A DNA stretch of 54,260 nucleotides from Lysobacterales bacterium (GTDB taxonomy: Bacteria > Pseudomonadota > Gammaproteobacteria > Xanthomonadales > SZUA-36): NCBI GenBank assembly GCA_013042835.1, contig JABDPJ010000197.1:1-54260 (forward strand), in the 5' to 3' direction. Below the pieces are notes generated by a model that worked only from the letters and a program-made list of their open reading frames with translations, did not search any database and was not told where the DNA came from. Positions 14,103 to 29,985 of the stretch are shown here, one piece after another. Position numbers and translations under genes: made by a program. Positions within the stretch are counted from its first letter, which is position 1. Each line of letters opens with the position of its first letter.

Positions 14103-15080
14103 TCAAACTGTCTGGTAGTAAAGATTTTGCGGATGATTCGCCTGCGCAAAGAAAAACCAGCGCTCCAGGACGAGGCCCGCATACTGGACCAGGAAAGCCA
14201 GTACCAGCAGAGCCGGCGAGGCCGCCACCAGGCCGCCTGCAAGCATTACCAGCGGAACGGGAAAGACCAGTAGCAGGAACAGCCACTTGATGTTTTTGTA
14301 CTTGCGCTGTGAAGCGCCGTGAAAATATTCACGCGTATTGAAGGAGCCGCCCATCGCGCCCTGCGCTTTCTGCTCAATTCTGCTGTGGCGGACGCCGATG
14401 GCTGTCTCCATCGTTGACTTTGGCTGCAGGCTGGCATTGCGCACCAGGCTGGCGGAACGGCCAATCAGGGCCAGCACGGTCAGGATAATGGCCCAGGCGC
14501 CGAAGAAGCCGGTCTGCGCCGACTCCTGGTAAGCGGCGAAACCCGTTACCAGCGTGAATCCCGAAGCCCATCCCAGCAGCGTGTAATTGATCACGGTCCA
14601 CGGCGTTGCCCACTCCTGCAACATCTTGATACAGGCATAGATCATGCCGGTGCACAGGAACAAGGCGAAACAAAGCACTGTCGCGACAGCGCCCGCGAGC
14701 AGTGACAGGTCGACCGGAAAAGAGTCTCCCAGTGTAAACAAAACTGGATTCCAGCCCGTGAAATGCAACAACCCCCAGGCAGCGACCGAGGCCATGAAAA
14801 CCGGCAGCACAATAACCTCACGCGACATCCATGACGTGCGCCAGCGAGCCGCTGAGCGCCAGGCGCGCTCCGGACGACCGAGGTGGAAAAATGAACTACC
14901 CAGACCCGCCACCAGCAATGCCAGCGAAATCAGGCTGCCCAGGACATAAAACTGGCCGGAACTTTCCGCCGGTAACAATTTGAAGACCGAATATAACTGC
15001 CCCGTGTAGAGCGCCAGGAACAGGCCCTGGCCGGCGCCGATAAGAGTGGTCAGAAAAATGATTGAAAATGCGGGATGCAT
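14103..15080 (-). CDS. DmsC-type membrane anchor subunit of a Mo-oxidoreductase (SoeC-like)
   Basis: 325 aa and polytopic (MHPAFSIIFLTTLIGAGQGLFLAL...). It is the last gene of a three-gene A-B-C cluster. Confidence 0.7.
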   Translation of the reverse strand: MHPAFSIIFLTTLIGAGQGLFLALYTGQLYSVFKLLPAESSGQFYVLGSLISLALLVAGLGSSFFHLGRPERAWRSAARWRTSWMSREVIVLPVFMASVAAWGLLHFTGWNPVLFTLGDSFPVDLSLLAGAVATVLCFALFLCTGMIYACIKMLQEWATPWTVINYTLLGWASGFTLVTGFAAYQESAQTGFFGAWAIILTVLALIGRSASLVRNASLQPKSTMETAIGVRHSRIEQKAQGAMGGSFNTREYFHGASQRKYKNIKWLFLLLVFPVPLVMLAGGLVAASPALLVLAFLVQYAGLVLERWFFFAQANHPQNLYYQTV

Positions 15081-15101
15081 GATGGTTTCCTTCGTATCCG
15101 T

Positions 15102-15833
15102 TTACCAGCTGGTCGTCTCGTCAAGTGTCGGTTCGCTATCGTCCGGCATGGGTTTCCGACGTTCTTTTCTGAGCGGATTGTCGGCGCGCTCCAGTTCATC
15201 TTCGTGGATGGTAATGCTGACTTTCTGCCGTGGCAGGTAATGATTGGCGGGCTTTGTACCCCACTCCGGCATGAGTTGGTAACCGCCGCTCTCCCTGATG
15301 GCGACAGCGACCTCGGAGTCCGGGTCATTGACGTCGCCAAACAGGCGCGCCTCGGCCGGGCAAGCAAGCACACAGGCCGGTTTACGTTCGCTTTCGGGCA
15401 GCGACTCGTCGTAAATCCGGTCGACGCACAGCGTGCACTTCTTCATGATCTTCTGATGCGCATCCAGTTCCCGCGCGCCATAGGGACAGGCCCAGGAACA
15501 GTAGTTGCAACCGATGCACTTGTCACTGTCGACCAGCACGATACCATCGGACTCGCGCTTGTAGCTGGCGCCGGTCGGACACACCGGTACGCAGGGCGGA
15601 TCTTCGCAATGCAGGCAGCTCTTCGGAAAATGAACGGTTTCGGTATCCGGAAATTGTCCGACCTCGAAGCTTTGCACGCGGTTGAAAAAGGTACCAACCG
15701 GGTCAGCACCGTAGGGATTCATATCAGACAGGTAGCCCGCCGTGCCGGAGGTGTTCCACTCCTTGCAGCTGGTGACGCAGGCATGACAGCCAACACAGAC
15801 ATTGAGATCGATGACCAGTGCCAGTTGAGTCAT
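15102..15833 (-). CDS. 4Fe-4S ferredoxin-type electron-transfer subunit (DmsB/PsrB family; SoeB-like)
   Basis: 243 aa with four Cys clusters: CVGCHACVTSC, CLHCEDPPCVPVC, CIGCNYCSWAC and CTLC...C. The start overlaps the stop of the catalytic subunit gene (ATGA). There is no Tat motif. Confidence 0.85.
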   Translation of the reverse strand: MTQLALVIDLNVCVGCHACVTSCKEWNTSGTAGYLSDMNPYGADPVGTFFNRVQSFEVGQFPDTETVHFPKSCLHCEDPPCVPVCPTGASYKRESDGIVLVDSDKCIGCNYCSWACPYGARELDAHQKIMKKCTLCVDRIYDESLPESERKPACVLACPAEARLFGDVNDPDSEVAVAIRESGGYQLMPEWGTKPANHYLPRQKVSITIHEDELERADNPLRKERRKPMPDDSEPTLDETTSW

Positions 15834-18745
15834 GACCTGCCTCCTTTGCCAGCGAAGTAGGTTAACCAGCGGCTGGGCTTCCTGTCTGTCATCTGCCCGG
15901 GAACGGAGGGCAAGGTATCGAACTGCGGTGAGCTGACCTTCTCCTCCCCCGCCCCTGCCGGGTAGATGCGCACCCGGACGTCAAACCAGCCGGCCTGGCC
16001 GGTAATCGGGTCGGAATTGGACAGGTGATCGCCGTCTTCTGATGGCGGCAACTCCTCGCTGATGAGGTGGTTGAGCAAAAAGCCTTTCTTAGCCTCGTTG
16101 GCATCGCCGTCCAGCGACCATGCGCCCGATGCTTTGCCGATAGCATTCCAGGTCCAGACCGTACCCGGTTCGACAGCTTCGGAATGCCGGCACAGGCAAC
16201 GAACTTTGCCGTGCATGGACTCGACCCACATCCAGCCACCGTCCTCGATGCCTGCTGCCTGCGCCGTCTTCGTATTCACGTACAGGAAGTTGTAGGTATG
16301 GATCTGCCGCAGCCAGGCGTTTTGCGAATCCCATGAGTGGTACATCGCCATGGGCCTCTGGGTCAACGCGTTGAGCGGGTATTTTTCCAGGTCGGATTGT
16401 AATGCCTCCAGGGGCTGCGAGTAGAACGGCAGCGGATCAAAGTGTCTTTCCACACGCTTGCGTAAATGATCGGGCGGCTGCCTGGTATCTGATTTGCCCT
16501 GGGCGGCGAGGCGAAACTTCTGCAAAACCTCGGAATAAATGTGAATGTTGATCGGTTCGGTATAACGCAGCAGCGCGTGGCGTTTCGCCCACTCGAGATA
16601 ACCCTGGTTCCAGTTGCGCATGTACTGGTAAGACCTCGGCAATCGATACTGAAACGCGCAGTTGTTCTTGGCGTACATCTCCCATTGTTTCGGGTTAGGC
16701 TCACCTTTCATGAACTTGTCGCCGTCCTTACCCCGCCATCCGGCCAGGAAGCCGATACCGGAACCCGGCGCCGTCTCGTAATTGACCACGAAGTCGGCGT
16801 AGTCACTGAACTTCGGACTGCCGTCGGCGTTGGTGAATGCAGGTAATTTCAGCCGTCCGGCCAATTCAATCAGCACGTCCTGGAACGGCCTGCACTGGCC
16901 GGTCGGTGGCAGCACCGGCACCCGCACGGAGTCGGCCGGACCTTCATAAGCGGAAATCGGCCGGTCCAGCATCGACATGACGTCGTGGCGTTCCAGGTAA
17001 GTGGTGTCGGGTAAAACCAGGTCCGCGAAGGCCACCGTTTCCGACTGAAAAGCGTCAGCGACGATAATGAACGGGATTTTGTATTCGCCGTCCTCTTCCT
17101 TGTCGACGAGCATTTCCCGCACGCCGGAGGTGTTCATACTGGAGTTCCAGGCCACGTTGGCCATGAACAGCATCAGCGTGTCAATTTTGTACGGGTCTCC
17201 CCGCCACGCATTGGTGATCGCGTTGTGCATCATGCCGTGCACCGACAGTGGAAACTCCCACGAGAACGCCTTGTCGAGGCGCACCGGGCTGCCGTCGTCA
17301 TTGACGAACAGGTCGTCCGGATCGGCCGGGAAACCCAGTGGCATCCCGTCCAGCGGCGTATTCGGCTGCACCGCCCGTGGATCGTTTGGCGGCTTGGCGC
17401 AGGGAGGTATCGGCCGCGGGAACGGCGCCTTGTGGCGAAAACCGCCGGGCCGGTCGATAGTGCCCAACAGGCTCATCAGGATCGACATGGCGCGGATGGT
17501 CTGGAAACCATTCGAGTGCGCCGCCAGGCCACGCATGGCATGAAACGCCACCGGGTTACCGGTGACGGTCTGGTGTTCATCACCCCAGGTATCGGTCCAG
17601 GCTATCGGCAGTTCAATTTTCTGATCACGCGCCGTAATTCCCATCTCGCGGGCCAGGCGAACGATCGTTTCCTCAGGTATGCCGGTGATTCCAGATGCCC
17701 ACTCGGCGGTATATTCGCTGACACGCTCGACCAGCAACTGGAAAGACGGTTTCACCGGCGTGCCATCCTCGAGTTCGTATTCACCCAAAAAGTAGGGGTC
17801 CACGCCCGGTGTATGGGTGGATATCGGAATATTCAGCTCACGGTCCCACCACAGTTTGTTCTGCGGATCAAAACAACCTTCCTCGTGCGGCACTTCAAAA
17901 CGCACGAACATGCCGTACTCGGATGAATTTTCATCCATGTTGACCAGTTCCGGCGCATTTGAGTACTGCGTCAGGAACTCCCGGTCATAGAGGCCCTGGC
18001 GAATGACCTCATTGATCAGGGCCAGGAACAGTGCGCCGTCGGTGCCCGGTTTGATCGGTACCCATTCGTCCGCTATGGCCGAGTAACCGGTGCGCACGGG
18101 GTTGATGGAAATGAATTTACCGCCCTGTCGTTTGAAATGGGCTATTTCCGTTTTGAGCGGGTTGGAATGGTGGTCCTCAGCCGTACCGATCATGACGAAC
18201 AGCTTGGCGCGCTCCAGGTCGGGCCCGCCAAATTCCCAGAACGAACCACCGATCGTATAAATCATTCCGGCCGCCATATTGACCGAGCAGAAACCACCGT
18301 GAGCCGCATAGTTGGGCGTACCGTATTGCTTGGCGAACAGGCCCGTCAGTGCCTGCATCTGATCGCGCCCGGTAAACAAGGCAAGCTTCTTCGGGTCACT
18401 GCCGCGCAAATGACCCATGCGCTCTTGCATGATTTCAAGCGCCTTGTCCCAGGAAATTTCTTCGAAATCACTCTCGCCCCGCTCACTGCCGGATTTGCGC
18501 ATTAACGGCCTGGTGATACGCGCCGGGCTGTACTGCTTCATGATGCCGCTCGAACCCTTTGCACAGATCACCCCCTTGTTGAGCGGATGGTCGGGGTTGC
18601 CCTGGATATAACGAACCTCACCGTCCCGCAGTGTCACGCGGATGCCGCAACGGCAGGCGCACATGTAACAGGTTGTGTTTTTGACCTCTACCTTGCTTTG
18701 TTCATCGAGTTTCTTTGACAGGGGGTCATGTATCGGATTGGACAT
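15830..18745 (-). CDS. Molybdopterin (bis-MGD) oxidoreductase catalytic subunit without Tat signal (SoeA-like sulfite dehydrogenase candidate)
   Basis: I trimmed ORF 15830..18832 to ATG 18745 (MSNPIHDPL...). It has an N-terminal FS0 cluster motif CYMCACRCG...ICAKG, is about 972 aa, and has no twin-arginine motif in either possible N-terminus. Confidence 0.75.
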   Translation of the reverse strand: MSNPIHDPLSKKLDEQSKVEVKNTTCYMCACRCGIRVTLRDGEVRYIQGNPDHPLNKGVICAKGSSGIMKQYSPARITRPLMRKSGSERGESDFEEISWDKALEIMQERMGHLRGSDPKKLALFTGRDQMQALTGLFAKQYGTPNYAAHGGFCSVNMAAGMIYTIGGSFWEFGGPDLERAKLFVMIGTAEDHHSNPLKTEIAHFKRQGGKFISINPVRTGYSAIADEWVPIKPGTDGALFLALINEVIRQGLYDREFLTQYSNAPELVNMDENSSEYGMFVRFEVPHEEGCFDPQNKLWWDRELNIPISTHTPGVDPYFLGEYELEDGTPVKPSFQLLVERVSEYTAEWASGITGIPEETIVRLAREMGITARDQKIELPIAWTDTWGDEHQTVTGNPVAFHAMRGLAAHSNGFQTIRAMSILMSLLGTIDRPGGFRHKAPFPRPIPPCAKPPNDPRAVQPNTPLDGMPLGFPADPDDLFVNDDGSPVRLDKAFSWEFPLSVHGMMHNAITNAWRGDPYKIDTLMLFMANVAWNSSMNTSGVREMLVDKEEDGEYKIPFIIVADAFQSETVAFADLVLPDTTYLERHDVMSMLDRPISAYEGPADSVRVPVLPPTGQCRPFQDVLIELAGRLKLPAFTNADGSPKFSDYADFVVNYETAPGSGIGFLAGWRGKDGDKFMKGEPNPKQWEMYAKNNCAFQYRLPRSYQYMRNWNQGYLEWAKRHALLRYTEPINIHIYSEVLQKFRLAAQGKSDTRQPPDHLRKRVERHFDPLPFYSQPLEALQSDLEKYPLNALTQRPMAMYHSWDSQNAWLRQIHTYNFLYVNTKTAQAAGIEDGGWMWVESMHGKVRCLCRHSEAVEPGTVWTWNAIGKASGAWSLDGDANEAKKGFLLNHLISEELPPSEDGDHLSNSDPITGQAGWFDVRVRIYPAGAGEEKVSSPQFDTLPSVPGQMTDRKPSRWLTYFAGKGGRS

Positions 18746-18919
18746 AAGAGTCTGCCTGTTGGGCCCGGTCCTGGCCGGAAAACGGCCATCTGCCGGACAG
18801 TTTTTCTGGTTGCTGCCGGGTTCGCAGCACACTGCTTCATAATAAACCAGATTATTACATATTAGATAATTTTAATTTACGTTAATTTTTCTTCGCTGCT
18901 AACACGCAACACGTCCTGA

Positions 18920-20404
18920 TCAATGAGCTTTTGTGGCCCGGTTATGCGACCAGATCCGCAGCGCGTTGAGTTGTTCTGACATGGTCTTCGACAATGGCAC
19001 GATGCGATAAATATTATGGATAAGATCATCATAGGTGATCTCGCGCCCGTCCGTGAACGCATCGATCCGCGCCGCCCTGACCATCTGCTCGATCTCGGCG
19101 GCGGTCCAGCCGTTCATGACCTTGGCGAGGTGGTTCAAATCGAACTCTTCCGGATCCCCGCCCTGGCCGAGTATGTGGATGCGCAGGATATCGATGCGTG
19201 CCGGCGCCTCTGGCAGGTCGACGAAGAACAACTGGTCGAACCTCCCTTTGCGGATCATTTCCGGCGGCAGGATCTCAATCCTGTTGGCCGTCGCAGCCAC
19301 GAAAACGTTGGCCGGCTTTTCCTGCATCCAGGTCAGGAACGATGAAAAAATGGTCATGTTGCCGCTGGTGGCGGAGTCGTTCAAAAAACCGAAACTGTTT
19401 TCAATTTCATCGATCCACAGCACGACCGGAGCGGCATTCTCGGCGGCACGGATAGCGCGCTCCCAGGCCACTTCGGGCGCGCCCCATCCACCTGACATGA
19501 TCTTGTTCATATCCAGGCGGATCAACGGCAGGCCCCAGACCGACGGTATGGTCTTGGCCGCCAGTGACTTGCCGCAACCACTGACGCCCATCATCAGGAT
19601 ACCGGCGGGCACATCTATCCGGGCGGCTTGCGCCTCCTTGGTGAAAAGTTTCTGCCGGGAAATCACCCAGCTTTTCAGTTTGCTGAGCCCGCCAATCTTG
19701 TCGATATCATATTTCTTGGTGATAACCTCGAGGCAGTTTTCCTTCATCAACAGCTGCGCTTTTGCGAGATTAATCTCAGCCAGTGCCGCGTCAACATCCA
19801 CTATCTTTTCACTGACCAGTTGGTGGAAAAGGTCACGGGTTTCGTTGGATGAAAGCCCTTGCGTTGCATACGAAACCCTGTCCAGCCACTCGTCGGAAAC
19901 CCGCTGTTCCTCGCCAAACCCGGAGTTCAGCGAGCCGAGCATACCTCTTAGTTCATCCGCGTCCGGCAAAGGCAGTTCAAGCAGGTATACCTCCTTGCTC
20001 AAGCCCGGGGGAATATTGATCGAAGGATGGGATACAACCATGCTGCCGGGCCGTACCGACAGGTGGTCATACACATCCCGCAACGCACGCACCAACGCCG
20101 GCCTCGATTCAAACAAAGCCGGCAGGTCTTTCATCAGGCAGATGGCGTCAACGCTCTCGCTGACGACAAATGACAGCGCCTCTACCGGATCCAGTAACTG
20201 CCGGTCTGCACCCGGGCCGCTGGTAAAACCGAGAGCCGCAGTCCATTGCCAAACCGGGCGGTCATCACCGAAGAGCTCTTGTGAAGCCCTGGCAAGCATT
20301 TGTTCGAGGCGTTCTTCCTCCCAGGTCACCACGTAAATGAGTGGTGATCCTGCAGCCAGTGTCCGGGAAAGTTGTTCCGAGGGTTTCACGCTTGATTCGT
20401 TCAT
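18920..20404 (-). CDS. Ycf46-like AAA+ ATPase
   Basis: Classical AAA module with Walker A GVSGCGKS, Walker B VLWIDEIE and second region of homology ATANRIEILPPEMIRKGRFD. The N-terminal ~250 aa begins ...SPLIYVVTWEEERLEQ, as in Ycf46-type proteins. Start 20404 (MNESSV...) places that motif at the usual distance from the N-terminus. The longer ORF start at 20482 would overlap the divergent gene's extension. Confidence 0.8.
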   Translation of the reverse strand: MNESSVKPSEQLSRTLAAGSPLIYVVTWEEERLEQMLARASQELFGDDRPVWQWTAALGFTSGPGADRQLLDPVEALSFVVSESVDAICLMKDLPALFESRPALVRALRDVYDHLSVRPGSMVVSHPSINIPPGLSKEVYLLELPLPDADELRGMLGSLNSGFGEEQRVSDEWLDRVSYATQGLSSNETRDLFHQLVSEKIVDVDAALAEINLAKAQLLMKENCLEVITKKYDIDKIGGLSKLKSWVISRQKLFTKEAQAARIDVPAGILMMGVSGCGKSLAAKTIPSVWGLPLIRLDMNKIMSGGWGAPEVAWERAIRAAENAAPVVLWIDEIENSFGFLNDSATSGNMTIFSSFLTWMQEKPANVFVAATANRIEILPPEMIRKGRFDQLFFVDLPEAPARIDILRIHILGQGGDPEEFDLNHLAKVMNGWTAAEIEQMVRAARIDAFTDGREITYDDLIHNIYRIVPLSKTMSEQLNALRIWSHNRATKAH

Positions 20405-20591
20405 TGCATTTATCCGGGCCGCATCCTTTAGCAATGCTAATAATAGCCAATTCGCAGGGTGTAGCCTCATGACCTGTGTCATCGCCGCGTCAAATGAAGC
20501 GCACGGAAATCCTCGCCGGCAATTGACTCAAGTCATTGCCGGGGGAAAAGCGTGTGGATATAGTTTCGCGCAACAAAAAAGAACGGGCGCC

Positions 20592-23500
20592 ATGAAATCC
20601 GTTGCAGCGCTGGCCAGCCAGGCAAGAGGTTCATCCACTGGTGCTCGAACCAGCCGCGCAAATATGCCCGTTAAACAGGAAAAGTCCCGCCTGATGGAAG
20701 GCTGGGTGATTGCCAATCACATTCTTGTTTCGTTTCATGTGGCATTTATCTCCTCCGTGTTAGCCATCCCGGACACTACGACAACCAGGGAAGCGGTGTT
20801 GCATTTCATCTTCCTGAGCCCGGAGACCATTGTTTCTGCTGTATTTACTTATGCGGTTTTCCATTCGGCCATTGCATTGCATGAGTTAGGGCACTTCCTG
20901 GAAGCTGCCAGATTGCGCGCACTCAATGATTCTATCCAGGCCAGGGTCGATTCCCGGCTTGCTGCGCCCCGCCCGGCTCGCTGGCGTTATCTTTTACTAT
21001 TGTTCCTGCAAATTCCCTATGGATTTGCTGTTGGCGTGAAGCGCGAGGGCCTGAATTACTATCCGGACGCACCGTATAATCTTGCCGTCGCTGCTGCCGG
21101 TCCGAGAGCGAGCCTCAAGGTCGCCCGCCTCGCGCTGCCGGTTGCCTTGGCCCTGCTGGCCATTGGCTTGCTGCATGATATTTCGTCAGCGCTCAACCTC
21201 GGCCGCTTGCTGCTCGGCCTGGGGATCGTGACTGGTCTTGATTTTTTGCTAGCGGACCCGGGTAAATACCGCGAATTCAAACGCCGGGAAAAGCTTGCAA
21301 GCACGGCGTCCTCCGCACTGCCGGTTGCTAATCGCTGGGCCGGCATGGCCGTCGACGCAAAATCCAGGATTGAACAACGAAGCATGCAGGAAGCGACCCA
21401 TCCACGCCTGGGTACCGTCAGGGCGCCGTGGCAGTTCCGCAATTGCGGCATGGGCGGCCGTCATACCGAAAAGGAATACCCGGAATCCAATATAAGCATG
21501 CAGGAGGCCATGTTCCTGATACTCGGTGCGGAGGATTCGCAGGAGGCGCAGGAAATGACCGTCCGCCTGCAGAACCGCCTCAAGGAAATCCTCGAGAAAG
21601 CGGAAGGTTGCCGGGTCATGGGAATCGGTCTTGAAGGTGGACTGGCGCCCTATGTCGATCGCGGGGACTACGAAATTCCTGAATTGCGCTTGTGGGCGAT
21701 GATGAAACAAACCATCGAAGAGTGCGGTTACCGGCCTGGTATCGATGTAGCCATCGCGCTCGACCCTGCCCTGTCCGAGCTGGAAATCGCCTACCGAGAG
21801 GAATTCGATCTGCCAGACAGCGTCGGTATGTACCTGTTCTGGAGGGACCATTCCAAAAAGGTCATGGACCGTGACGCCGTATTGGCAATCTACGAGCAGG
21901 CGATCAACGAACACGATATCCCGATTCTTTCGATCGAAGACGGCTTTTCAGAAGATGATCTTGAGGGTTGGAAAAAACTGCTGGCCAAACTAGGTGACCA
22001 TGTGCTGGTGATCGGTGATGACCTCGTAACCACAAACGACCGCACGATCGAGAAAGCGGCTGACGCCGGCCTGATCAACTCCGTTCTGGTTAAAGCCAAC
22101 CAGATAGGCTCCCTGTACGAAACTCTTCTGGCTGTGCTGGTGACCCTCGGTAAAGGCTTGAACCTGATCGTCTCACACCGCTCGAAAAGCCCCAACGACG
22201 ATATGGAGGCACACATTGCCCTGGCAACCAACGCACTGGGCCTGAAGGCCGGCGGAGGTGCGAATACCGAGCGCCTGGTCAAGTACCAGGCGGTAACCAC
22301 GCAGATGGAACGGGTCGTCGATGCCGGTATACAGGAACCAAACCTGCCGGGCTTCGCAACCATTGAAAACCTGAGGGCACGTGAAGAACCAACCAACGCC
22401 GGTATCCCGACGGTTGGAGTAGACGTCCAGTTGGCCTTGCCGGGTGAAAGCGCGGATACCGGTGTCCGCCTGAAATTTCATGGCGCGACCCCTTTGGGCA
22501 CCTCATCCGGAACCGGCGAGGCCGTGCACTTGGTCGACCGGGTATTCGAACGGGCGGAATACCTGGAAGCGGTTGAACAATATTCGCAATTACTCACGGA
22601 GATGGAGCCCGGGGTTTTCGCCTTCAAACCGGGTGTGACCCGGGAGCAGGCTGAGTCGGCCGGCGACGCAGCGTTGCTGGCCTTGTTCAAACGGACCCAA
22701 CGCTACGAGGGCAAGGGCTGCTTGAACGCTGTCGATCATGTGCATGAATTTGCCGCGCCGTGTTTCGAAGACAGGAACGTTGCCGATTGGGGCTTACTGG
22801 ACATCGACCGCACGCTGCTGAGGCTGGAGCTGGACACTGCTAAGCGACGTAAAAAGCTGCCTGCCACTGCTGACCATGAGGCCGAAATTCGCGTCATGCA
22901 GCGCAAACAGAACATTGGCATGAACGCTATCCTGTCGATCTCGCTTGCCATGGCGCGTGGCGTCGCACATGTTCGTGGACAGGAACTCTACGAGTTCTTG
23001 CGCGAGGAAATGCTGGTTATAATCGAACGTCTCGCCAGCGCGCATGACGTCGCAATCCAGGGCAGCCGCTTCGACGACTACCTTGCGGCCTTGCGCGAAG
23101 TAAACGCGAAACTGGAGCAACAACACATGCCACTTTACAAGTCTCTGCGCGAAGTAACCGGAGTGTACAAGCAGGACGGCAAGCAAAGTCGCGCGCCGGC
23201 TCCCTTCAGCGCCAACTGGCACGTCATTCCCAGCGAAGACGAGTCGTTCAGTTCACAGGAACAGGCAGAGATCAGCAGCCTGAACCATGCGCTGGTAAAA
23301 ACCTATCTCGTCGGGGATAGGCCGGAGGAGAACAGGTTCATACTGCGTCATTACCTGAAAACCATGCGCCTGCTGGGGCAACGTTACCGTATGTTTGAAA
23401 TAACCAACCACCGGGTTTTCAAATTTGAAGACAAGCTCATCGTTCCCTACGATGCACAAGGCAGGTTATCCATATACGTACTGACAAAAAAATCCCAGCG

Positions 23501-26500
23501 CCTGGTCAATGAACTGCGGGTGCCGCACGGCACACTGGTAACAGACGAGTTGATCGCAGATTTGGCCGGCATGCAGGGTGACGCGATTGATCTGGAACGG
23601 GAAATCTATCATTTGCATGTGGATGACATGCCCGCAATCCAGGTGTCACGCCTGCGTGACCTTGCCAGGTTGCTAAGGCGGCTGAACAACTGCGGCAGTC
23701 GCCATGAAGCGGTTTACCTGTTGCGTTTCCTGGTTGCCAGGCTTTGCAGCAGTTCCTATCGCGGCATGCCCGGCGCCAAGAATCTGAAACCGGAAATCAC
23801 CAGGGTGCGGCAGGAATTGGCCGAATTCATGAACGGGCCATTTGCGGAACGCCTGCGCCTGCCGACACGCATCCTCGTGAGAAGCATCTCGGGGCTGGTA
23901 TCCCAGCCAAAATTGATTGACGAAGTCTGGCAGGACACGATAGACCTTTCCGAGGTCATGGTACGGGGCAGCACCATCACGAATGAAATCCGCCGCAGCA
24001 CGCACCATGCAATGGGCAAACATACGCTGCGTCTGGCACGCGCCTACCTGCAATGGCTGCAGTTGGGTGAGGCTGAATTTCCGGATCCGGAACGGGAGAT
24101 TCCGGTTACTGCCGATGAAGCGGCGCGCGATAATCCGAAGGTGATAGCACTCGTAGAACGGATTGTCGCCGATCTTGAACAACTCATGGGTAGCTCGCAA
24201 ATTGCCCGGCGGTTGTTGGAGTGGCGTGACGCTTATGCGGACGAGTTGTTGCGTTGTGAATCAACAAATACCCTTGAAGAGGAACTCGAATCACTGACTA
24301 CCAAGGGCATTCGCACGCAAAATCAATGGGTTTATCAGCACAGACTGCGTAGCCTGACCAGCAAGTTGCGTGACGGCAACTGGTCAGACAAGGCCCGCAA
24401 ACCATTTGGTGCAAGCCTGAAATTCCTGCAGGAAAACTTGCCCGACGGCATTGACTTTCCCGCCGCTGAAATAGAAAGCAGGGCGCGCAAAGCCGTTGAC
24501 GCTTTCTGCGAACAGATCAGGCATGATCACCAGGACGCCCTGTTCAGCGCGCTTGACGGGCTGCTCGGCTACTACGAGGGCGGTCAGAATTTTAAGGCCT
24601 TCACCCGCAGTTGCGAACTGCGGCGCGAACTGGAAACGCTGGCCGGAGACGGCGTATTTGACACCCAGCGTTACCTCCTGCACCAGCTTGACTGCATTCT
24701 CGAGGAGTTGGGGTTTTTCGCTCTCAGGCACGTTGCATCGGATTATGCTGACAACGGCATGAAACTCGAAGAATGCCTGCAAATCGTACACCGCTGTGCC
24801 CGCAACCTGGACCGCGATGGACTGTACTCACGGGAACTGTGGGATTTATCGACCATGTTGATCAACCCTATGCGGACGCGTTCAGAACTGCTTGACGTAT
24901 TGGAGCAGATTCAACGTAACTACCACCGTCTCGTTCACCGCATCAGCAATGCCTACGAAGTGATGGCCGCGCACCTGGGCTATGGGACCGACGAGATGCG
25001 CGCGGTACTTGCCAACTTCCAGCGCACCATGCATGACCTGAATAGCCTCGTGCACTTTTCAGACCTGGCGCGCACCTACCTGTCCGAGAATGACCGTGAA
25101 ATAGAACGCTCGGAGGTGGGCGATCCCGGCACAGACCCATGGGATTTTGTGCATCTTTCGCACCGGGAAGACATCAACCGCCGGGTAGAGAGCAGAGATC
25201 CTGTCAGTTTGCAGGCGCGCTATGGCGGCAAGGGAAGCGGCCTGATCTATATATCCTATCTGGGCATTCCGACACGTGACGGCTTCATCATTCCCACCGT
25301 TTTACCCCGCCTGGATTTGCAAAACAGGGAAAAGGAGCGGTTTGAAAAAGAAGTGAGAAAGCATGTCCGCCTGCTGGAAAGCGATATACAACGCAATGAG
25401 GGAACCTCGCTGAAGCTCGGTGACCCCGAAGCACCGTTACTACTCGCCGTGCGCGGAGGTTCACCATTCTCAATGCCGGGAATGCTGGCAACCATGGTCT
25501 TTGTCGGCATGACCGATGCCGTGGCCGATGCCCTGGCCGTTGAGGATGAATGGTACGCCTGGGACGCCTACCGGCGCTTCCTCGTTTCGTTCTCCGCGGC
25601 AGTCTGGAACCTCGATATCGAAGCCCTTGACCTGGTGGAAAAAACCAAGCGCCAGCATGGCGTCGATCTCAAGACCGACCTGCCGGGCGCGGCCATGCGC
25701 GAGGTCGTTGAAGCGACCAAGCAGGCGATTCGAGACGCAGGACACAAAGATGAATTCGAGCATCTCACCGTGGATGCGGATCTGCAGTTACAGACTGCGT
25801 TACAGGCAGTACACAGTTCCTGGAACCGGGACCGTGCCCGCCAGTACCGTTCTATCAAGCACCTCAGCGAAGGCTGGCACACGGCAGCCACGGTGCAGCA
25901 AATGGCTTCCGGTAACCGGACCAACCGCCAGGAGCTAAAGCCGGGTATTGACGAAATGCGTATATCTCTTACCGGTGTTATTCCCAACACGCAGGTGCAG
26001 TCGACGGGATTCCGTGAGTTTACCGGTGATGTGAAATTCCAGGCCTGCGGCGATGACCTGGTGGGCGGCATGACCGCGGCCAAGTCTTTCGAGCCGGTGC
26101 AGAGACTGCATGTGCTGGCTCCCATGCTGGAACGGAAACTCAACCATGTCAGCGCCCGGTTGCGGCGCTTCCTGGGATCGGATGCGGAGATAGAATTCAC
26201 GGTTGACCGTGGTGTGCTCAGCGTATTGCAGGCGCGCAGCGCACAAATGGACCAGCAATTCCACAACCCACGGACGTTCAAAGACCCGGGGACTTCGAGC
26301 GGGCGCGGAATTGGCATCAGTGGCGGAGCCTTCCGCGGCCTGGTGGCATTCAACCAGGCCGATGTGACGCGCCTCGGCAAGGCCATGGATGAACAGTCAG
26401 AGGAAGTCGATGGCATATTGCTCGTGCTGGAGAACCCGGTACCCGATGAAATTCCGTTGATCCTTTCGGTCGGAGGCTTGCTGGCAGCGCGGGGTGGTTC

Positions 26501-26747
26501 GACATCACACGCCGCTGTCTGCGTTCACGGTATCGAAGATAAGCAATACAGCGCGGTGCTCGGTGTGCCGGAATTGCGGGTCGGCACGGCCAAGGCCACG
26601 CTGACAGGGGAAGACGGAGCAATCACACACACCCTGCATGCGGGCGACATAGTCTCCATTCACGGGCAGACCGGTGAAGTATTTGCCGGCTGGCGTGAGG
26701 TCATCAGCATTGAAGCTGATGCGCCAGCCGCCACGAAACATCCATAG
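20592..26747 (+). CDS. Giant multidomain protein: S2P/M50-like membrane metalloprotease region + circularly permuted enolase + ~700-aa unassigned region + PPDK/PEP-synthase-type ATP-grasp + phosphohistidine swivel domain
   Basis: Uninterrupted ORF 20337..26747 (2136 codons). The 5' end is uncertain, with candidate ATGs at 20592, 20664 and 20694. The first 85 codons overlap the divergent ATPase ORF extension and look non-coding. Domain motifs are listed in the sub-features below. Confidence 0.85.
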   Translation: MKSVAALASQARGSSTGARTSRANMPVKQEKSRLMEGWVIANHILVSFHVAFISSVLAIPDTTTTREAVLHFIFLSPETIVSAVFTYAVFHSAIALHELGHFLEAARLRALNDSIQARVDSRLAAPRPARWRYLLLLFLQIPYGFAVGVKREGLNYYPDAPYNLAVAAAGPRASLKVARLALPVALALLAIGLLHDISSALNLGRLLLGLGIVTGLDFLLADPGKYREFKRREKLASTASSALPVANRWAGMAVDAKSRIEQRSMQEATHPRLGTVRAPWQFRNCGMGGRHTEKEYPESNISMQEAMFLILGAEDSQEAQEMTVRLQNRLKEILEKAEGCRVMGIGLEGGLAPYVDRGDYEIPELRLWAMMKQTIEECGYRPGIDVAIALDPALSELEIAYREEFDLPDSVGMYLFWRDHSKKVMDRDAVLAIYEQAINEHDIPILSIEDGFSEDDLEGWKKLLAKLGDHVLVIGDDLVTTNDRTIEKAADAGLINSVLVKANQIGSLYETLLAVLVTLGKGLNLIVSHRSKSPNDDMEAHIALATNALGLKAGGGANTERLVKYQAVTTQMERVVDAGIQEPNLPGFATIENLRAREEPTNAGIPTVGVDVQLALPGESADTGVRLKFHGATPLGTSSGTGEAVHLVDRVFERAEYLEAVEQYSQLLTEMEPGVFAFKPGVTREQAESAGDAALLALFKRTQRYEGKGCLNAVDHVHEFAAPCFEDRNVADWGLLDIDRTLLRLELDTAKRRKKLPATADHEAEIRVMQRKQNIGMNAILSISLAMARGVAHVRGQELYEFLREEMLVIIERLASAHDVAIQGSRFDDYLAALREVNAKLEQQHMPLYKSLREVTGVYKQDGKQSRAPAPFSANWHVIPSEDESFSSQEQAEISSLNHALVKTYLVGDRPEENRFILRHYLKTMRLLGQRYRMFEITNHRVFKFEDKLIVPYDAQGRLSIYVLTKKSQRLVNELRVPHGTLVTDELIADLAGMQGDAIDLEREIYHLHVDDMPAIQVSRLRDLARLLRRLNNCGSRHEAVYLLRFLVARLCSSSYRGMPGAKNLKPEITRVRQELAEFMNGPFAERLRLPTRILVRSISGLVSQPKLIDEVWQDTIDLSEVMVRGSTITNEIRRSTHHAMGKHTLRLARAYLQWLQLGEAEFPDPEREIPVTADEAARDNPKVIALVERIVADLEQLMGSSQIARRLLEWRDAYADELLRCESTNTLEEELESLTTKGIRTQNQWVYQHRLRSLTSKLRDGNWSDKARKPFGASLKFLQENLPDGIDFPAAEIESRARKAVDAFCEQIRHDHQDALFSALDGLLGYYEGGQNFKAFTRSCELRRELETLAGDGVFDTQRYLLHQLDCILEELGFFALRHVASDYADNGMKLEECLQIVHRCARNLDRDGLYSRELWDLSTMLINPMRTRSELLDVLEQIQRNYHRLVHRISNAYEVMAAHLGYGTDEMRAVLANFQRTMHDLNSLVHFSDLARTYLSENDREIERSEVGDPGTDPWDFVHLSHREDINRRVESRDPVSLQARYGGKGSGLIYISYLGIPTRDGFIIPTVLPRLDLQNREKERFEKEVRKHVRLLESDIQRNEGTSLKLGDPEAPLLLAVRGGSPFSMPGMLATMVFVGMTDAVADALAVEDEWYAWDAYRRFLVSFSAAVWNLDIEALDLVEKTKRQHGVDLKTDLPGAAMREVVEATKQAIRDAGHKDEFEHLTVDADLQLQTALQAVHSSWNRDRARQYRSIKHLSEGWHTAATVQQMASGNRTNRQELKPGIDEMRISLTGVIPNTQVQSTGFREFTGDVKFQACGDDLVGGMTAAKSFEPVQRLHVLAPMLERKLNHVSARLRRFLGSDAEIEFTVDRGVLSVLQARSAQMDQQFHNPRTFKDPGTSSGRGIGISGGAFRGLVAFNQADVTRLGKAMDEQSEEVDGILLVLENPVPDEIPLILSVGGLLAARGGSTSHAAVCVHGIEDKQYSAVLGVPELRVGTAKATLTGEDGAITHTLHAGDIVSIHGQTGEVFAGWREVISIEADAPAATKHP
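20694..21266 (+). other. Domain: hydrophobic N-terminal region with site-2-protease (M50)-like motifs
   Basis: HELGH (nt 20880-20894) sits inside a hydrophobic stretch AVFTYAVFHSAIALHELGHFLEA. A downstream AVAAAGPRASL (AGP motif) follows. Further hydrophobic helices are present (LALPVALALLAIGLL, LLLGLGIVTGLDFLLAD), with a possible LD third-ligand motif. Confidence 0.55.
21414..22316 (+). other. Domain: enolase C-terminal TIM-barrel equivalent (placed first)
   Basis: These motifs align by eye to canonical enolase: PWQFRNCGMGGRH / MQEAMFLILGA, GLEGGLAP, AIALDPALSE, ILSIEDGFSEDDLEGW, VIGDDLVTTN, VLVKANQIGSL, IVSHRS and GLKAGG..TERLVKY. Confidence 0.8.
22374..23006 (+). other. Domain: enolase N-terminal domain equivalent (placed after the barrel)
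   Basis: GIPTVGVDV...GATPLGTSSGTGEAVHLVD corresponds to GNPTVEVE...VPSGASTG.HEA.E.RD. YEGKGCLNAVDHVHEFAAPCF corresponds to GKGV..AV.NVN..I.P. NIGMNAILSISLAMARGVAHVRGQELYEFL corresponds to LGANAILGVSLA..KAAA....PLY..L. Confidence 0.75.
25134..26261 (+). other. Domain: PPDK/PEP-synthase N-terminal nucleotide-binding (ATP-grasp) domain
   Basis: Motifs: YGGKGSGLIYISYLGIPTRDGFIIPT, LLLAVRGGSPFSMPGMLATMVFVGMTD, AWDAYRRFLVSF, ATVQQMASGN...LTGVIPN...FQACGDDLVGG and EIEFTVDRGVLSVLQARS. Confidence 0.8.
26289..26711 (+). other. Domain: PEP-utilising-enzyme mobile (swivel) domain with catalytic His
   Basis: GLLAARGGSTSHAAVCVHG, with the His codon CAC at 26508-26510, matches the GG.TSHAA.VAR phosphohistidine signature. 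The protein ends ~75 aa later, so no PEP/pyruvate-binding barrel follows. Confidence 0.8.
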
Positions 26748-29048: not shown

Positions 29049-29501
29049 TCAAATCTCCACGTCTTTGTACTTGTCTGTTTTACTTTCAATCAGCCTTTGC
29101 CGCCAGACCGAAATCAGCAGCAGCGCCAGGCCACCATAAATGGCAATTATGAGCAGTTTCATTCCCACGGGTATGTCGGGATTGAAGATAAAAAAACCCA
29201 CGCCGATACCGGCGACAATCAGCAAGCCGGCGATAAAAAGTAACCAGCCTATGCCGCGGGTGAGTTCCACGGTTGAATCATTCATGCTTTCCCTCCACTG
29301 GTCTTCGCCCACCTCGCTCAGGCGGGCCGTTCCAACACGTTCCCGAAGTTCGCGCAGGCCGGCCAGGTTTTCCCGGCACTCGTCACAATTATCGCAATGC
29401 AGCGTTACAAGCTGCCGTTGCTGCTGGGTCAGTTCGCCGTCGATAAACCCGGATAGCAAATCGCCCACGTGTTGGTCTATATGTCGGTTCCTGTCAGACA
29501 T
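29049..29501 (-). CDS. Membrane anti-sigma factor (zf-HC2 type)
   Basis: 150 aa with an N-terminal zinc-finger anti-sigma motif LLSGFIDGEL....HCDNCDECRENL and two C-terminal TM helices. It overlaps the sigma-factor gene by 8 nt. Confidence 0.8.
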   Translation of the reverse strand: MSDRNRHIDQHVGDLLSGFIDGELTQQQRQLVTLHCDNCDECRENLAGLRELRERVGTARLSEVGEDQWRESMNDSTVELTRGIGWLLFIAGLLIVAGIGVGFFIFNPDIPVGMKLLIIAIYGGLALLLISVWRQRLIESKTDKYKDVEI

Positions 29502-29985
29502 CTTGAATTAATTCCTCCTTCAGTGCCATACGCGCGCGGTGCAGGCGGGACATGACCGTTCCCGGGGCAACCTCCAGGACATCTGCAATGTCCGCATAAG
29601 ACAGGTCCATGTAGTCCCGCAAGACGATAATTTGCCTTTGATCTGCCGTCAGCTTTGCCAGGGCAAGTTGCAAGCCGCGGTCGCGCTGTGAAATTTCCAA
29701 TGAGGCTTCGGGTCCCGGACGGTGATCAGCCAGTTTCCCGACATCTGCGCCACCAGGACGACGACGCCTCATCATATCGATACAATGATTGCGAACGACA
29801 CGCAGAAACCACGGCGCAAACGGCCCGTTCGCAGCGTTGTAGGACATGGGTTTCCCGAGTACTTTCACGAAGGCGTCGTGAACCGCATCTGCTGCGTCAT
29901 CGGTGTTACCCAGCAACTGTATCGCCAGCGCGTGGGCGCCGTTTCCAAGTTGTGCAATCTGTTGTCGCATGTCGTTCTTTTTCAT
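29494..29985 (-). CDS. ECF (group IV) sigma-70 family RNA polymerase sigma factor
   Basis: 163 aa with region 2 (PWFLRVVRNHCIDMMRRR) and region 4 HTH (LSYADIADVLEVAPGTVMSRLHRAR). Confidence 0.85.
   Translation of the reverse strand: MKKNDMRQQIAQLGNGAHALAIQLLGNTDDAADAVHDAFVKVLGKPMSYNAANGPFAPWFLRVVRNHCIDMMRRRRPGGADVGKLADHRPGPEASLEISQRDRGLQLALAKLTADQRQIIVLRDYMDLSYADIADVLEVAPGTVMSRLHRARMALKEELIQDV

What the first reader, a model, noticed from the sequence alone, without database searches (positions are those of the whole stretch)
21414..23006. Circularly permuted enolase module that appears to keep every catalytic residue
The barrel half (PWQFRNCGMGGRH...MQEAMF, GLEGG, ALDPALSE, SIEDGFSEDD, GDDL, VKANQIG, SHRS, GLKAGG) comes about 300 aa before the N-terminal-domain half (GIPTVGVDV, PLGTSSGTGEA, KGCLNAV, IGMNAILSISLA...ELYEFL). 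By eye, the equivalents of yeast enolase Ser39, His159, Glu168, Glu211, Asp246, Glu295, Asp320, Lys345, His373/Arg374/Ser375 and Lys396 are all present, so it may still bind Mg2+ and 2-PG/PEP. Only the GETED segment after HRS is changed, to KSPND. I am not aware of a naturally permuted enolase embedded in a larger protein.
Basis: partly seen in the sequence, partly recalled or inferred. Interest (0 to 1): 0.8.

Follow-up and report, generated by a model that had tools for sequence, protein, structure and literature searches.

The report
Circularly permuted enolase in giant membrane protein
A 2,051-residue membrane-anchored bacterial protein contains an enolase whose two domains are in reversed order but which keeps every catalytic residue, and this unstudied arrangement is conserved in at least 262 species-level genomes; the 80 best whose titles I saw are all uncultured bacteria.

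Summary
In the + strand gene at 20592-26747, the enolase TIM barrel (nt 21411-22337) comes before the enolase N-terminal capping domain (nt 22359-23024). No N-domain lies upstream of the barrel, and re-ordering the two halves in silico restores one collinear match to canonical enolase. All 13 catalytic, metal and substrate residues are present. They are invariant in the homologues examined, down to about 25% identity. An AlphaFold2 model of the module is confident (pTM 0.87).

The module is not isolated. It always follows a weakly site-2-protease-like HExxH membrane domain, and the two form a supermodule found in several giant-protein architectures. In the window protein it is followed by a helical domain with no PDB fold match. 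After that come a PPDK-type ATP-grasp domain and a phosphohistidine swivel domain. The usual PEP/pyruvate barrel is absent. Omnitrophota relatives fuse enolase, permuted or canonical, to a complete PPDK, which argues for coupled PEP metabolism.

At least 262 species-level genomes carry the module, and the 80 whose titles I saw are all MAGs. No curated family covers it, and the literature search tool failed. Activity, substrate and physiological role are inferred, not shown. I rate it a new variant of a known kind.

The parts
20592..26747 (+). Gene for the 2,051-aa multidomain protein. The maximal ORF starts at 20337. An alternative ATG lies at 20694.
   Evidence: The translation differs at 4 residues from P0001 (2,051 aa). 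The divergent AAA gene ends at 20482.
20691..21287 (+). Membrane domain with 4-6 hydrophobic helices. It has an invariant HExxH (His at 20880-20882), an AAAGP motif and an LDF motif (Asp at 21240-21242). Similarity to site-2 protease (Peptidase_M50) is weak.
   Evidence: 16 of 21 members hit PF02163, best E 7.2e-5, all below the curated cut-off. A profile search of the PDB found nothing.
21411..22337 (+). Enolase TIM-barrel half, equivalent to yeast residues about 140-425. It carries H159, Q167, E168, E211, D246, E295, D320, K345, H373, R374, S375 and K396.
   Evidence: Foldseek top hits are enolases over about 300 columns.
22338..22358 (+). Boundary region of the short linker (roughly 12-20 residues between the aligned ends) that joins the old C-terminus of the barrel to the old N-terminus of the capping domain.
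   Evidence: alignment ends and envelopes.
22359..23024 (+). Enolase N-terminal capping domain: a three-stranded sheet, the Ser39 lid loop (Ser at 22503-22505) and four helices. It has inserts of about 50 aa and about 20 aa.
23025..23192 (+). Helical extension after the N-domain. It is conserved together with the membrane domain and enolase as part of the supermodule (P0001 aa about 28-860).
23019..25211 (+). Family-specific middle domain, mostly helical with a small beta subdomain. It has no PDB fold match and contains an invariant NExRRSxHHAxG motif at 23982-24017.
25215..26252 (+). PPDK/PEPS-type nucleotide-binding (ATP-grasp) domain with conserved GGKG, R.GS.F.MPG, E.EFTV and LQ.R motifs.
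26415..26675 (+). Phosphohistidine swivel domain (PEP-utilizers) with motif GGSTSHAAV (His at 26508-26510). The protein ends just after it, and no PEP-utilizers_C barrel follows.

Best explanation
Shown: the region encodes a genuine, naturally circularly permuted enolase. The cut lies in the interdomain linker, so the barrel comes first and the capping domain second, joined by a short new linker. The complete catalytic and Mg2+/substrate-binding residue set is under strict purifying selection. The module is fused behind an HExxH membrane domain, and the two form a conserved supermodule. From the positive-inside pattern of the sequence I infer that the soluble part faces the cytoplasm.

Inferred: the two halves reassemble into a canonical enolase active site that binds two Mg2+ and 2-phosphoglycerate/PEP and interconverts them.

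Inferred, more weakly: this PEP-handling site works together with the C-terminal ATP-grasp and phosphohistidine relay of the same polypeptide. That would make the protein a membrane-tethered PEP/2-PG/ATP enzyme rather than a housekeeping glycolytic enolase. The role of the protease-like membrane domain is unknown.
For: Permutation.

Catalytic residues: identical to yeast enolase. They are invariant in alignment A1 (window module plus 48 homologues), at least 97% conserved in 110 full-length homologues, and invariant in 30 divergent permuted modules down to about 25% identity, apart from positions missing in two fragments.

Structure: AF2 pLDDT 83.7 and pTM 0.87 for the whole two-domain module. 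Low confidence is confined to the Ser39 lid loop and one other loop. Foldseek top hits are enolases.

Distribution: 262 species-level genomes carry the module. In 58 of 58 loci where both halves scored, the order is permuted.

Supermodule: BLAST alignments to P0001 span aa about 28-860 in most other architectures, and some contain tandem copies.

Link to PEP metabolism:
- Every listed member of the window family carries PPDK_N and/or the swivel domain, apart from truncated fragments and one full-length member, P0324.
- P0155 (Omnitrophota) joins a permuted enolase to a complete PPDK that includes PEP-utilizers_C.
- P0160 has PPDK_N on the other side of the module.
- P0278 joins a canonical-order enolase to a complete PPDK and an aminotransferase.
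- The dikinase motifs and the swivel His are conserved.
Against: - No activity data exist.
- Active-site geometry could not be checked, because no coordinates were available.
- The lid loops are remodelled and the remodelled sequences are themselves invariant: a 5-residue insertion in L2, a changed L3, GETE->K/Q-S-P-N and D210->hydrophobic. The substrate or the gating may therefore differ from that of a housekeeping enolase.
- The protein scores below the TIGR01060 equivalog cut-off (214 bits against 300).
- Some architectures carry the supermodule with no detectable dikinase (P0127, P0134, P0137, P0141), so coupling to the phosphohistidine relay is not obligatory.
- No operon partner is conserved across phyla.
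Confidence: 0.6

Rival explanations
1. Metabolite sensor. The permuted enolase binds 2-PG/PEP but serves mainly as a regulatory domain for the membrane HExxH (site-2-protease-like) domain. This would be analogous to the ATP-binding CBS domain of SpoIVFB (from my own knowledge of that family).
For: The enolase is almost always coupled to the HExxH membrane domain, even in architectures that lack a dikinase. The membrane domain has an invariant HExxH and Asp and weak M50 similarity. The lid loops are remodelled.
Against: The acid/base residues (K345, E211, E168, H373), not just the binding residues, are invariant down to 25% identity. Fusions to complete PPDK and to an aminotransferase look metabolic. 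M50 membership is itself unproven.
Confidence: 0.18
2. Changed substrate. The module performs enolase-type chemistry (alpha-proton abstraction and beta-elimination on a two-Mg2+ site) on a compound other than free 2-PG, such as a larger or membrane-associated phospho-hydroxy-acid.
For: Family-specific changes cluster in the three lid loops and next to the phosphate-binding SHRS segment, and they are invariant. The barrel is tethered directly to a membrane domain. The score is below the equivalog cut-off.
Against: Every residue known to contact the phosphate, carboxylate and C3-OH of 2-PG is unchanged. Recurrent fusion with PPDK points to PEP.
Confidence: 0.12
3. Artefact or mis-reading. The order would result from an assembly chimera, a frameshift, or a tandem enolase duplication with an unnoticed upstream N-domain or downstream barrel.
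For: None was found. The only barrel-N-barrel protein seen (P0176) is a canonical GETED-type enolase preceded by an extra barrel, and it is not a member of this family.
Against: The region is one uninterrupted ORF. The same order occurs in 58 of 58 scored loci and in 262 genomes from many phyla and assemblers. No enolase signal lies upstream or downstream, even at E<=10.
Confidence: 0.01

Closest known systems
Canonical enolase (phosphopyruvate hydratase; Pfam PF03952 + PF00113; e.g. yeast Eno1, E. coli Eno, Chloroflexus aurantiacus 4z17)
   Same: Both domains are homologous, with about 30-33% barrel identity to bacterial enolases. All metal ligands, acid/base residues and substrate-binding residues are identical, and the mobile Ser39 loop is present.
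   Different: - The domain order is reversed, barrel then capping domain, with a short new linker.
- The module is embedded in a 2,051-aa membrane protein.
- Sequence changes: GETE->KSPN, D210->Leu, a 5-aa insertion in lid loop L2, a remodelled L3, and two inserts in the N-domain.
- It scores below the TIGR01060 cut-off.
Pyruvate phosphate dikinase / PEP synthase (PPDK_N + PEP-utilizers + PEP-utilizers_C)
   Same: The C-terminal 500 aa match the ATP-grasp and phosphohistidine swivel domains, with conserved motifs and the catalytic His.
   Different: The PEP/pyruvate TIM barrel is absent. The middle domain is helical with no PDB match, so it is not a hidden barrel. The protein scores below the equivalog cut-offs.
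Dikinases that lack the PEP barrel and phosphorylate another acceptor (rifampin phosphotransferase, glucan water dikinase); from my own knowledge, not tested here
   Same: An ATP-grasp domain plus a swivel His, combined with a different substrate-binding domain.
   Different: No sequence or fold match of the middle domain to any PDB entry, which includes these enzymes. The acceptor is unknown, and an enolase is present.
Site-2 protease family (Peptidase_M50; SpoIVFB, RseP)
   Same: An HExxH in a hydrophobic helix, an AGP motif, a later conserved LD motif in another helix, and a large cytoplasmic appendage.
   Different: Only sub-threshold Pfam similarity, with best E 7.2e-5 and all hits below the gathering score. 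The profile search found no hit to solved S2P structures.
Omnitrophota giant proteins P0155 and P0278 ('putative PEP-binding protein' and 'pyruvate, phosphate dikinase, partial')
   Same: Enolase and PPDK parts in one polypeptide. P0155 has the permuted, KSP-type enolase.
   Different: Both carry a complete PPDK with PEP-utilizers_C. P0278's enolase is in canonical order and of the SHRSGE type, lacks the HExGH motif of the membrane domain, and is accompanied by an aminotransferase.

Membership tests
Enolase (phosphopyruvate hydratase) | Homology to the enolase C-terminal TIM barrel | tested here: met
   PF00113 E 4.8e-49. PDB enolases E about 1e-44. Foldseek probability 1.00.
Enolase (phosphopyruvate hydratase) | Homology to the enolase N-terminal capping domain | tested here: met
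   PF03952 scores 61.6 bits against a cut-off of 35 when the segment is scanned alone. My own HMM gives 70 bits.
Enolase (phosphopyruvate hydratase) | Domain order: N-terminal domain, then barrel | tested here: not met
   The barrel envelope (274-582) precedes the N-domain envelopes (590-811) in P0001. No N-domain lies upstream. 58 of 58 loci are permuted.
Enolase (phosphopyruvate hydratase) | Metal ligands D246, E295, D320 and S39 | tested here: met
   Identical and invariant.
Enolase (phosphopyruvate hydratase) | Catalytic and substrate residues K345, E211, E168, H373, K396, R374, S375, H159, Q167 | tested here: met
   Identical and invariant down to about 25% identity.
Enolase (phosphopyruvate hydratase) | Equivalog-level score (TIGR01060, at least 300 bits) and the canonical SHRSGETED segment | tested here: not met
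   214.2 bits. The segment reads SHRSKSPND and is invariant in the family.
Enolase (phosphopyruvate hydratase) | 2-PG/PEP interconversion activity | not testable with these tools
   Needs an enzyme assay.
Enolase (phosphopyruvate hydratase) | The two halves pack into one canonical active site | tested here: inconclusive
   pTM 0.87 for the whole module argues for a fixed assembly. No coordinates were available, and Foldseek aligned only the barrel.
PPDK / PEP synthase | ATP-grasp nucleotide-binding domain | tested here: met
   PF01326 E 4.4e-12. TIGR01828 positions 16-339 matched.
PPDK / PEP synthase | Phosphohistidine swivel domain with catalytic His | tested here: met
   PF00391 scores 24.9 bits against a cut-off of 23.1. 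GGS.SHAAV is conserved.
PPDK / PEP synthase | PEP/pyruvate-binding TIM barrel (PEP-utilizers_C) | tested here: not met
   No PF02896 hit. The protein ends after the swivel domain. The middle domain is helical with no PDB match.
Peptidase M50 (site-2 protease) | HExxH in a membrane helix plus a downstream Asp ligand motif | tested here: inconclusive
   HExxH and the Asp of the LDF motif are invariant, but their roles are unverified.
Peptidase M50 (site-2 protease) | Profile match above Pfam's gathering score | tested here: not met
   17 bits against 27.2. 16 of 21 members hit weakly. No PDB profile hit.

The most novel reading that the evidence does not exclude
In this family the permuted enolase barrel may have taken over the job of the missing PEP/pyruvate barrel of a PPDK/PEP-synthase. 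The swivelling phospho-histidine would then exchange phosphate directly with PEP bound in an enolase active site. The remodelled and invariant lid loops could be the docking surface. One membrane-anchored polypeptide would run 2-PG <-> PEP <-> pyruvate with ATP formation or use, possibly gating the site-2-protease-like membrane domain.
Probability: 0.1. Interest if true: 0.9.

Novelty: new variant of a known kind. Interest (0 to 1): 0.7.

Why it matters
Enolase is one of the most conserved and best-studied enzymes, and its N-domain-then-barrel order is treated as fixed across the enolase superfamily.

- **Enzyme evolution.** A natural circular permutant that keeps the entire catalytic apparatus, and is conserved across many bacterial phyla, shows that the fold tolerates the permutation in nature. 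It offers a test case for how two-domain active sites survive re-wiring.
- **Metabolism.** Its obligatory pairing with an HExxH membrane domain and its recurrent fusion to dikinase modules point to an uncharacterised, membrane-localised use of 2-PG/PEP chemistry in uncultured Lysobacterales, Acidobacteriota, Planctomycetota, Omnitrophota and other groups.
- **Annotation.** Current annotation calls these proteins 'enolase', 'PEP/pyruvate-binding domain-containing protein' or 'hypothetical'. That could mislead metabolic reconstructions of MAGs.

Tried and rejected
1. **Literature.** Only the phrase 'permuted enolase' ran, and it returned 0 papers. Prior description therefore cannot be excluded.
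2. **Upstream N-domain.** None was found.
3. **Hidden PEP-utilizers_C barrel in the middle region.** Rejected. The AF2 model is helical and has no PDB fold match, with best E 0.15.
4. **Conserved operon partners.** ORFs within +/-10 kb in 86 loci were clustered. Nothing is conserved across phyla. The AAA ATPase, DUF480 and other neighbours recur only in close gammaproteobacterial relatives. A molybdopterin oxidoreductase recurs in 14 loci, which is suggestive but weak.
5. **Known anti-phage defence component.** There are no PADLOC hits for the large protein.
6. **Membrane-domain profile against the PDB.** No S2P hit.
7. **Canonical eno gene in the same genomes.** This could not be tested.
8. 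**Duplication intermediate.** P0176 has a barrel-N-barrel arrangement, but it is a canonical-type enolase with an extra barrel and is not a member of this family.
Full report
**Observation**

The finding lies inside one uninterrupted + strand ORF, 20337-26747. Its product from the ATG at 20592 is 2,051 aa. It differs at only 4 residues from P0001, an NCBI MAG protein annotated 'hypothetical' (Gammaproteobacteria). The finding's coordinates 21414-23006 correspond to ORF residues 360-890.

Several independent comparisons agree on the domain order:
- Pfam puts Enolase_C at ORF aa 372-655 (E 4.8e-49) and Enolase_N downstream.
- The N-domain segment scanned alone scores 61.6 bits, against a curated cut-off of 35.
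- phmmer against solved enolases aligns the barrel first (enolase 153-406). It then aligns three pieces of the N-domain in order: enolase 5-54, 57-93 and 103-135.
- HMMs I built from 40 canonical enolases give envelopes of 274-582 for the barrel, and 590-673 and 682-811 for the N-domain, in P0001 numbering. Nothing is found upstream, even at E<=10 with filters off.
- When I swapped the two segments in silico, a single collinear domain covered HMM positions 40-409 at 287.5 bits.
- tblastn of yeast enolase finds only these two stretches in the 54-kb window.

The permutation is therefore real. The cut falls in the interdomain linker, and a linker of roughly 12-20 residues joins the old C- and N-termini.

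**Catalytic residues**

I aligned the protein to yeast enolase, using a sequence recalled from memory. All twelve landmark residues I checked sit in their expected motifs at the published numbers. S39, H159, Q167, E168, E211, D246, E295, D320, K345, H373, R374, S375 and K396 all fall on identical residues. Their conservation is as follows:
- invariant in alignment A1, which holds the window module plus 48 homologues;
- at least 97% conserved in 110 full-length homologues of 51-100% identity;
- invariant in 30 divergent permuted modules, some only about 25% identical, apart from positions missing in two fragments.

The family also has fixed differences of its own:
- G376-E-T-E becomes K/Q-S-P-N/D.
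- D210 becomes a hydrophobic residue.
- Lid loop L2 has a 5-residue insertion.
- Loop L3 is remodelled (YLFWRD).
- The N-domain has two inserts.

**Structure**

AlphaFold2, run on a 49-sequence alignment, gives pLDDT 83.7 and pTM 0.87 for the 566-aa module. The only segments with pLDDT below 50 are ANTE (just after the K396 equivalent) and TSSGTGEA, the Ser39 lid loop. A pTM this high for a two-domain unit implies a defined inter-domain geometry.

Foldseek's top PDB hits are all enolases. As a sequential aligner it covers only the barrel, about 300 columns with TMt about 0.55. I had no coordinates, so I could not verify that the lid loop sits over the metal site.

**The rest of the protein**

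- *Residues 34-232 of P0001.* These form 4-6 hydrophobic helices with an invariant HExxH, an AAAGP motif and an LDF motif. Sixteen of 21 members hit Peptidase_M50 weakly (best E 7.2e-5), all below the gathering score. A profile search of the PDB finds no S2P. I call this domain site-2-protease-like, not a proven member.
- *ORF aa 895-1625.* This stretch folds confidently (pLDDT 82, pTM 0.72) into a mostly helical domain with a small beta subdomain. It has no PDB fold match, with best E 0.15. It carries an invariant NExRRSxHHAxG motif.
- *The C-terminus.* This is a PPDK-type ATP-grasp domain followed by a phosphohistidine swivel domain, with conserved motifs and the catalytic His. The PEP/pyruvate barrel is missing.

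**Distribution**

More than 120 proteins of about 2,050 aa share the full architecture. The diagnostic peptides RNCGMGGR and YPESN[IV]SM recover 262 species-level genomes in GTDB. The best 80 are all MAGs. They include Lysobacterales and other Gammaproteobacteria, Planctomycetota, Acidobacteriota/Aminicenantes, Myxococcota, Desulfobacterota-like deltaproteobacteria, Gemmatimonadota, Krumholzibacteria, Dehalococcoidia and others. In 58 of 58 loci where both halves scored, the order is permuted.

An exhaustive HMMER search of 1.84 billion representatives shows the permuted module as a single collinear stretch in other architectures as well. These are proteins of 2,300-2,600 aa with the module in the middle, one 6,041-aa protein, and proteins with tandem copies. 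BLAST shows that the shared unit is P0001 aa about 28-860 in most of them. That unit is the HExxH membrane domain plus the permuted enolase plus a helical extension, which I call the supermodule. Several of these variants have no detectable dikinase. They have a signal-like N-terminus and about 650 aa ahead of the membrane domain.

**Functional inference**

No operon partner is conserved across phyla, so the protein probably acts on its own.

Fusion patterns are the best clue:
- Every listed member of the window family carries dikinase parts, apart from truncated fragments and one full-length member, P0324.
- P0160 has PPDK_N on the other side of the module.
- The Omnitrophota protein P0155 joins the permuted, KSP-type enolase to a complete PPDK that includes PEP-utilizers_C.
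- P0278 joins a canonical-order enolase to a related complete PPDK and an aminotransferase.

Enolase and PPDK catalyse consecutive steps around PEP. Their repeated fusion in different orders argues that the permuted module handles 2-PG/PEP as a metabolite, not merely as a scaffold.

My best explanation, at confidence 0.6, is that the module is a catalytically competent, membrane-tethered enolase working with a phosphohistidine relay.

The rivals are:
- a metabolite-sensing pseudo-catalytic domain that regulates the protease-like membrane domain (0.18);
- an enolase-type reaction on a different substrate, suggested by the remodelled lids (0.12);
- an artefact (about 0.01, effectively refuted).

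The most novel reading not excluded is that the enolase barrel replaces the missing PEP/pyruvate barrel and exchanges phosphate directly with the swivel His. I put this at about 0.1.

**Novelty**

No NCBIfam model covers the protein above its cut-off. PADLOC has nothing for it. Public names are 'hypothetical', 'enolase' or 'PEP/pyruvate-binding domain-containing protein'.

The literature tool failed on nine of ten attempts. The one search that ran, for the phrase 'permuted enolase', returned no paper. From my own knowledge I know of no described natural circular permutant of enolase.

I rate this a new variant of a known kind. It uses known domains and known chemistry, but the topology and domain context are undescribed and conserved. 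Interest is 0.7.

Noticed in passing
window 18920-20482 (-): A divergently transcribed 520-aa AAA+ ATPase with an N-terminal region of about 280 aa that has no family match. It is a conserved neighbour only in close gammaproteobacterial relatives (7 loci). PADLOC gives IetA-like AAA hits (E 5.9e-20), which probably reflect generic AAA similarity.
   Followed up: partly
window 14103-18832 (-): A DmsABC-like operon: a 1,000-aa molybdopterin oxidoreductase, a 4Fe-4S subunit and a DmsC-like anchor. A molybdopterin oxidoreductase lies within 10 kb of the giant gene in 14 of 86 loci, including Acidobacteriota and Krumholzibacteria. This could be chance or a weak linkage.
   Followed up: partly
window 23982-24017 (+): An invariant NExRRSxHHAxG motif in the otherwise unmatchable helical middle domain. 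It is a candidate phosphate-handling or acceptor site for the swivel His.
   Followed up: no
P0175 (2,099 aa) and P0206 (4,136 aa): These proteins contain two or more tandem copies of the membrane-domain-plus-permuted-enolase supermodule.
   Followed up: partly
P0278 (3,427 aa, Candidatus Omnitrophica MAG): One polypeptide holds an aminotransferase, a canonical-order enolase and a complete PPDK. Its PPDK is 40% identical to that of P0155, which carries the permuted enolase instead. The pair forms a natural canonical-versus-permuted comparison.
   Followed up: partly
P0176 (888 aa): A barrel-Ndomain-barrel arrangement: an extra enolase barrel ahead of a strong canonical enolase (GETED type). 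It resembles the duplication intermediate expected on the way to a circular permutation, but it is not a member of this family.
   Followed up: partly
L001 1832-9895; L002 18353-24439; also L003, L040, L063: Giant alpha-2-macroglobulin-like proteins lie next to or near the gene in several distant loci. An esterase-family gene sits immediately upstream on the same strand in L002/L003 and L006.
   Followed up: no
L023 and L028: Two separate loci from the same MAG (Chromatiales isolate Ww343) each encode a copy of the module, at 79% and 75% identity to the query. Paralogues can therefore coexist in one genome bin.
   Followed up: no
L087 1958-6718 and 13796-15484: The dikinase-less variant P0127 is flanked on the same strand by a 1,586-aa gene and a gene of at least 563 aa, neither with a recorded Pfam hit. 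Their signal-like N-termini and N-terminal regions resemble the extracytoplasmic parts of other family members.
   Followed up: partly
window 20694-20696: The window protein has Met where P0001 and most homologues have Leu or Gln (ORF aa 120, just before the conserved EGWVIANH). This creates a possible alternative start codon. In total, 4 substitutions separate the window protein from P0001.
   Followed up: no
window 29049-29985 (-): An ECF sigma factor gene followed by a zf-HC2 anti-sigma gene, about 2.3 kb downstream of the giant gene. I mention the pair only because site-2 proteases classically act on anti-sigma factors. No linkage was tested.
   Followed up: no
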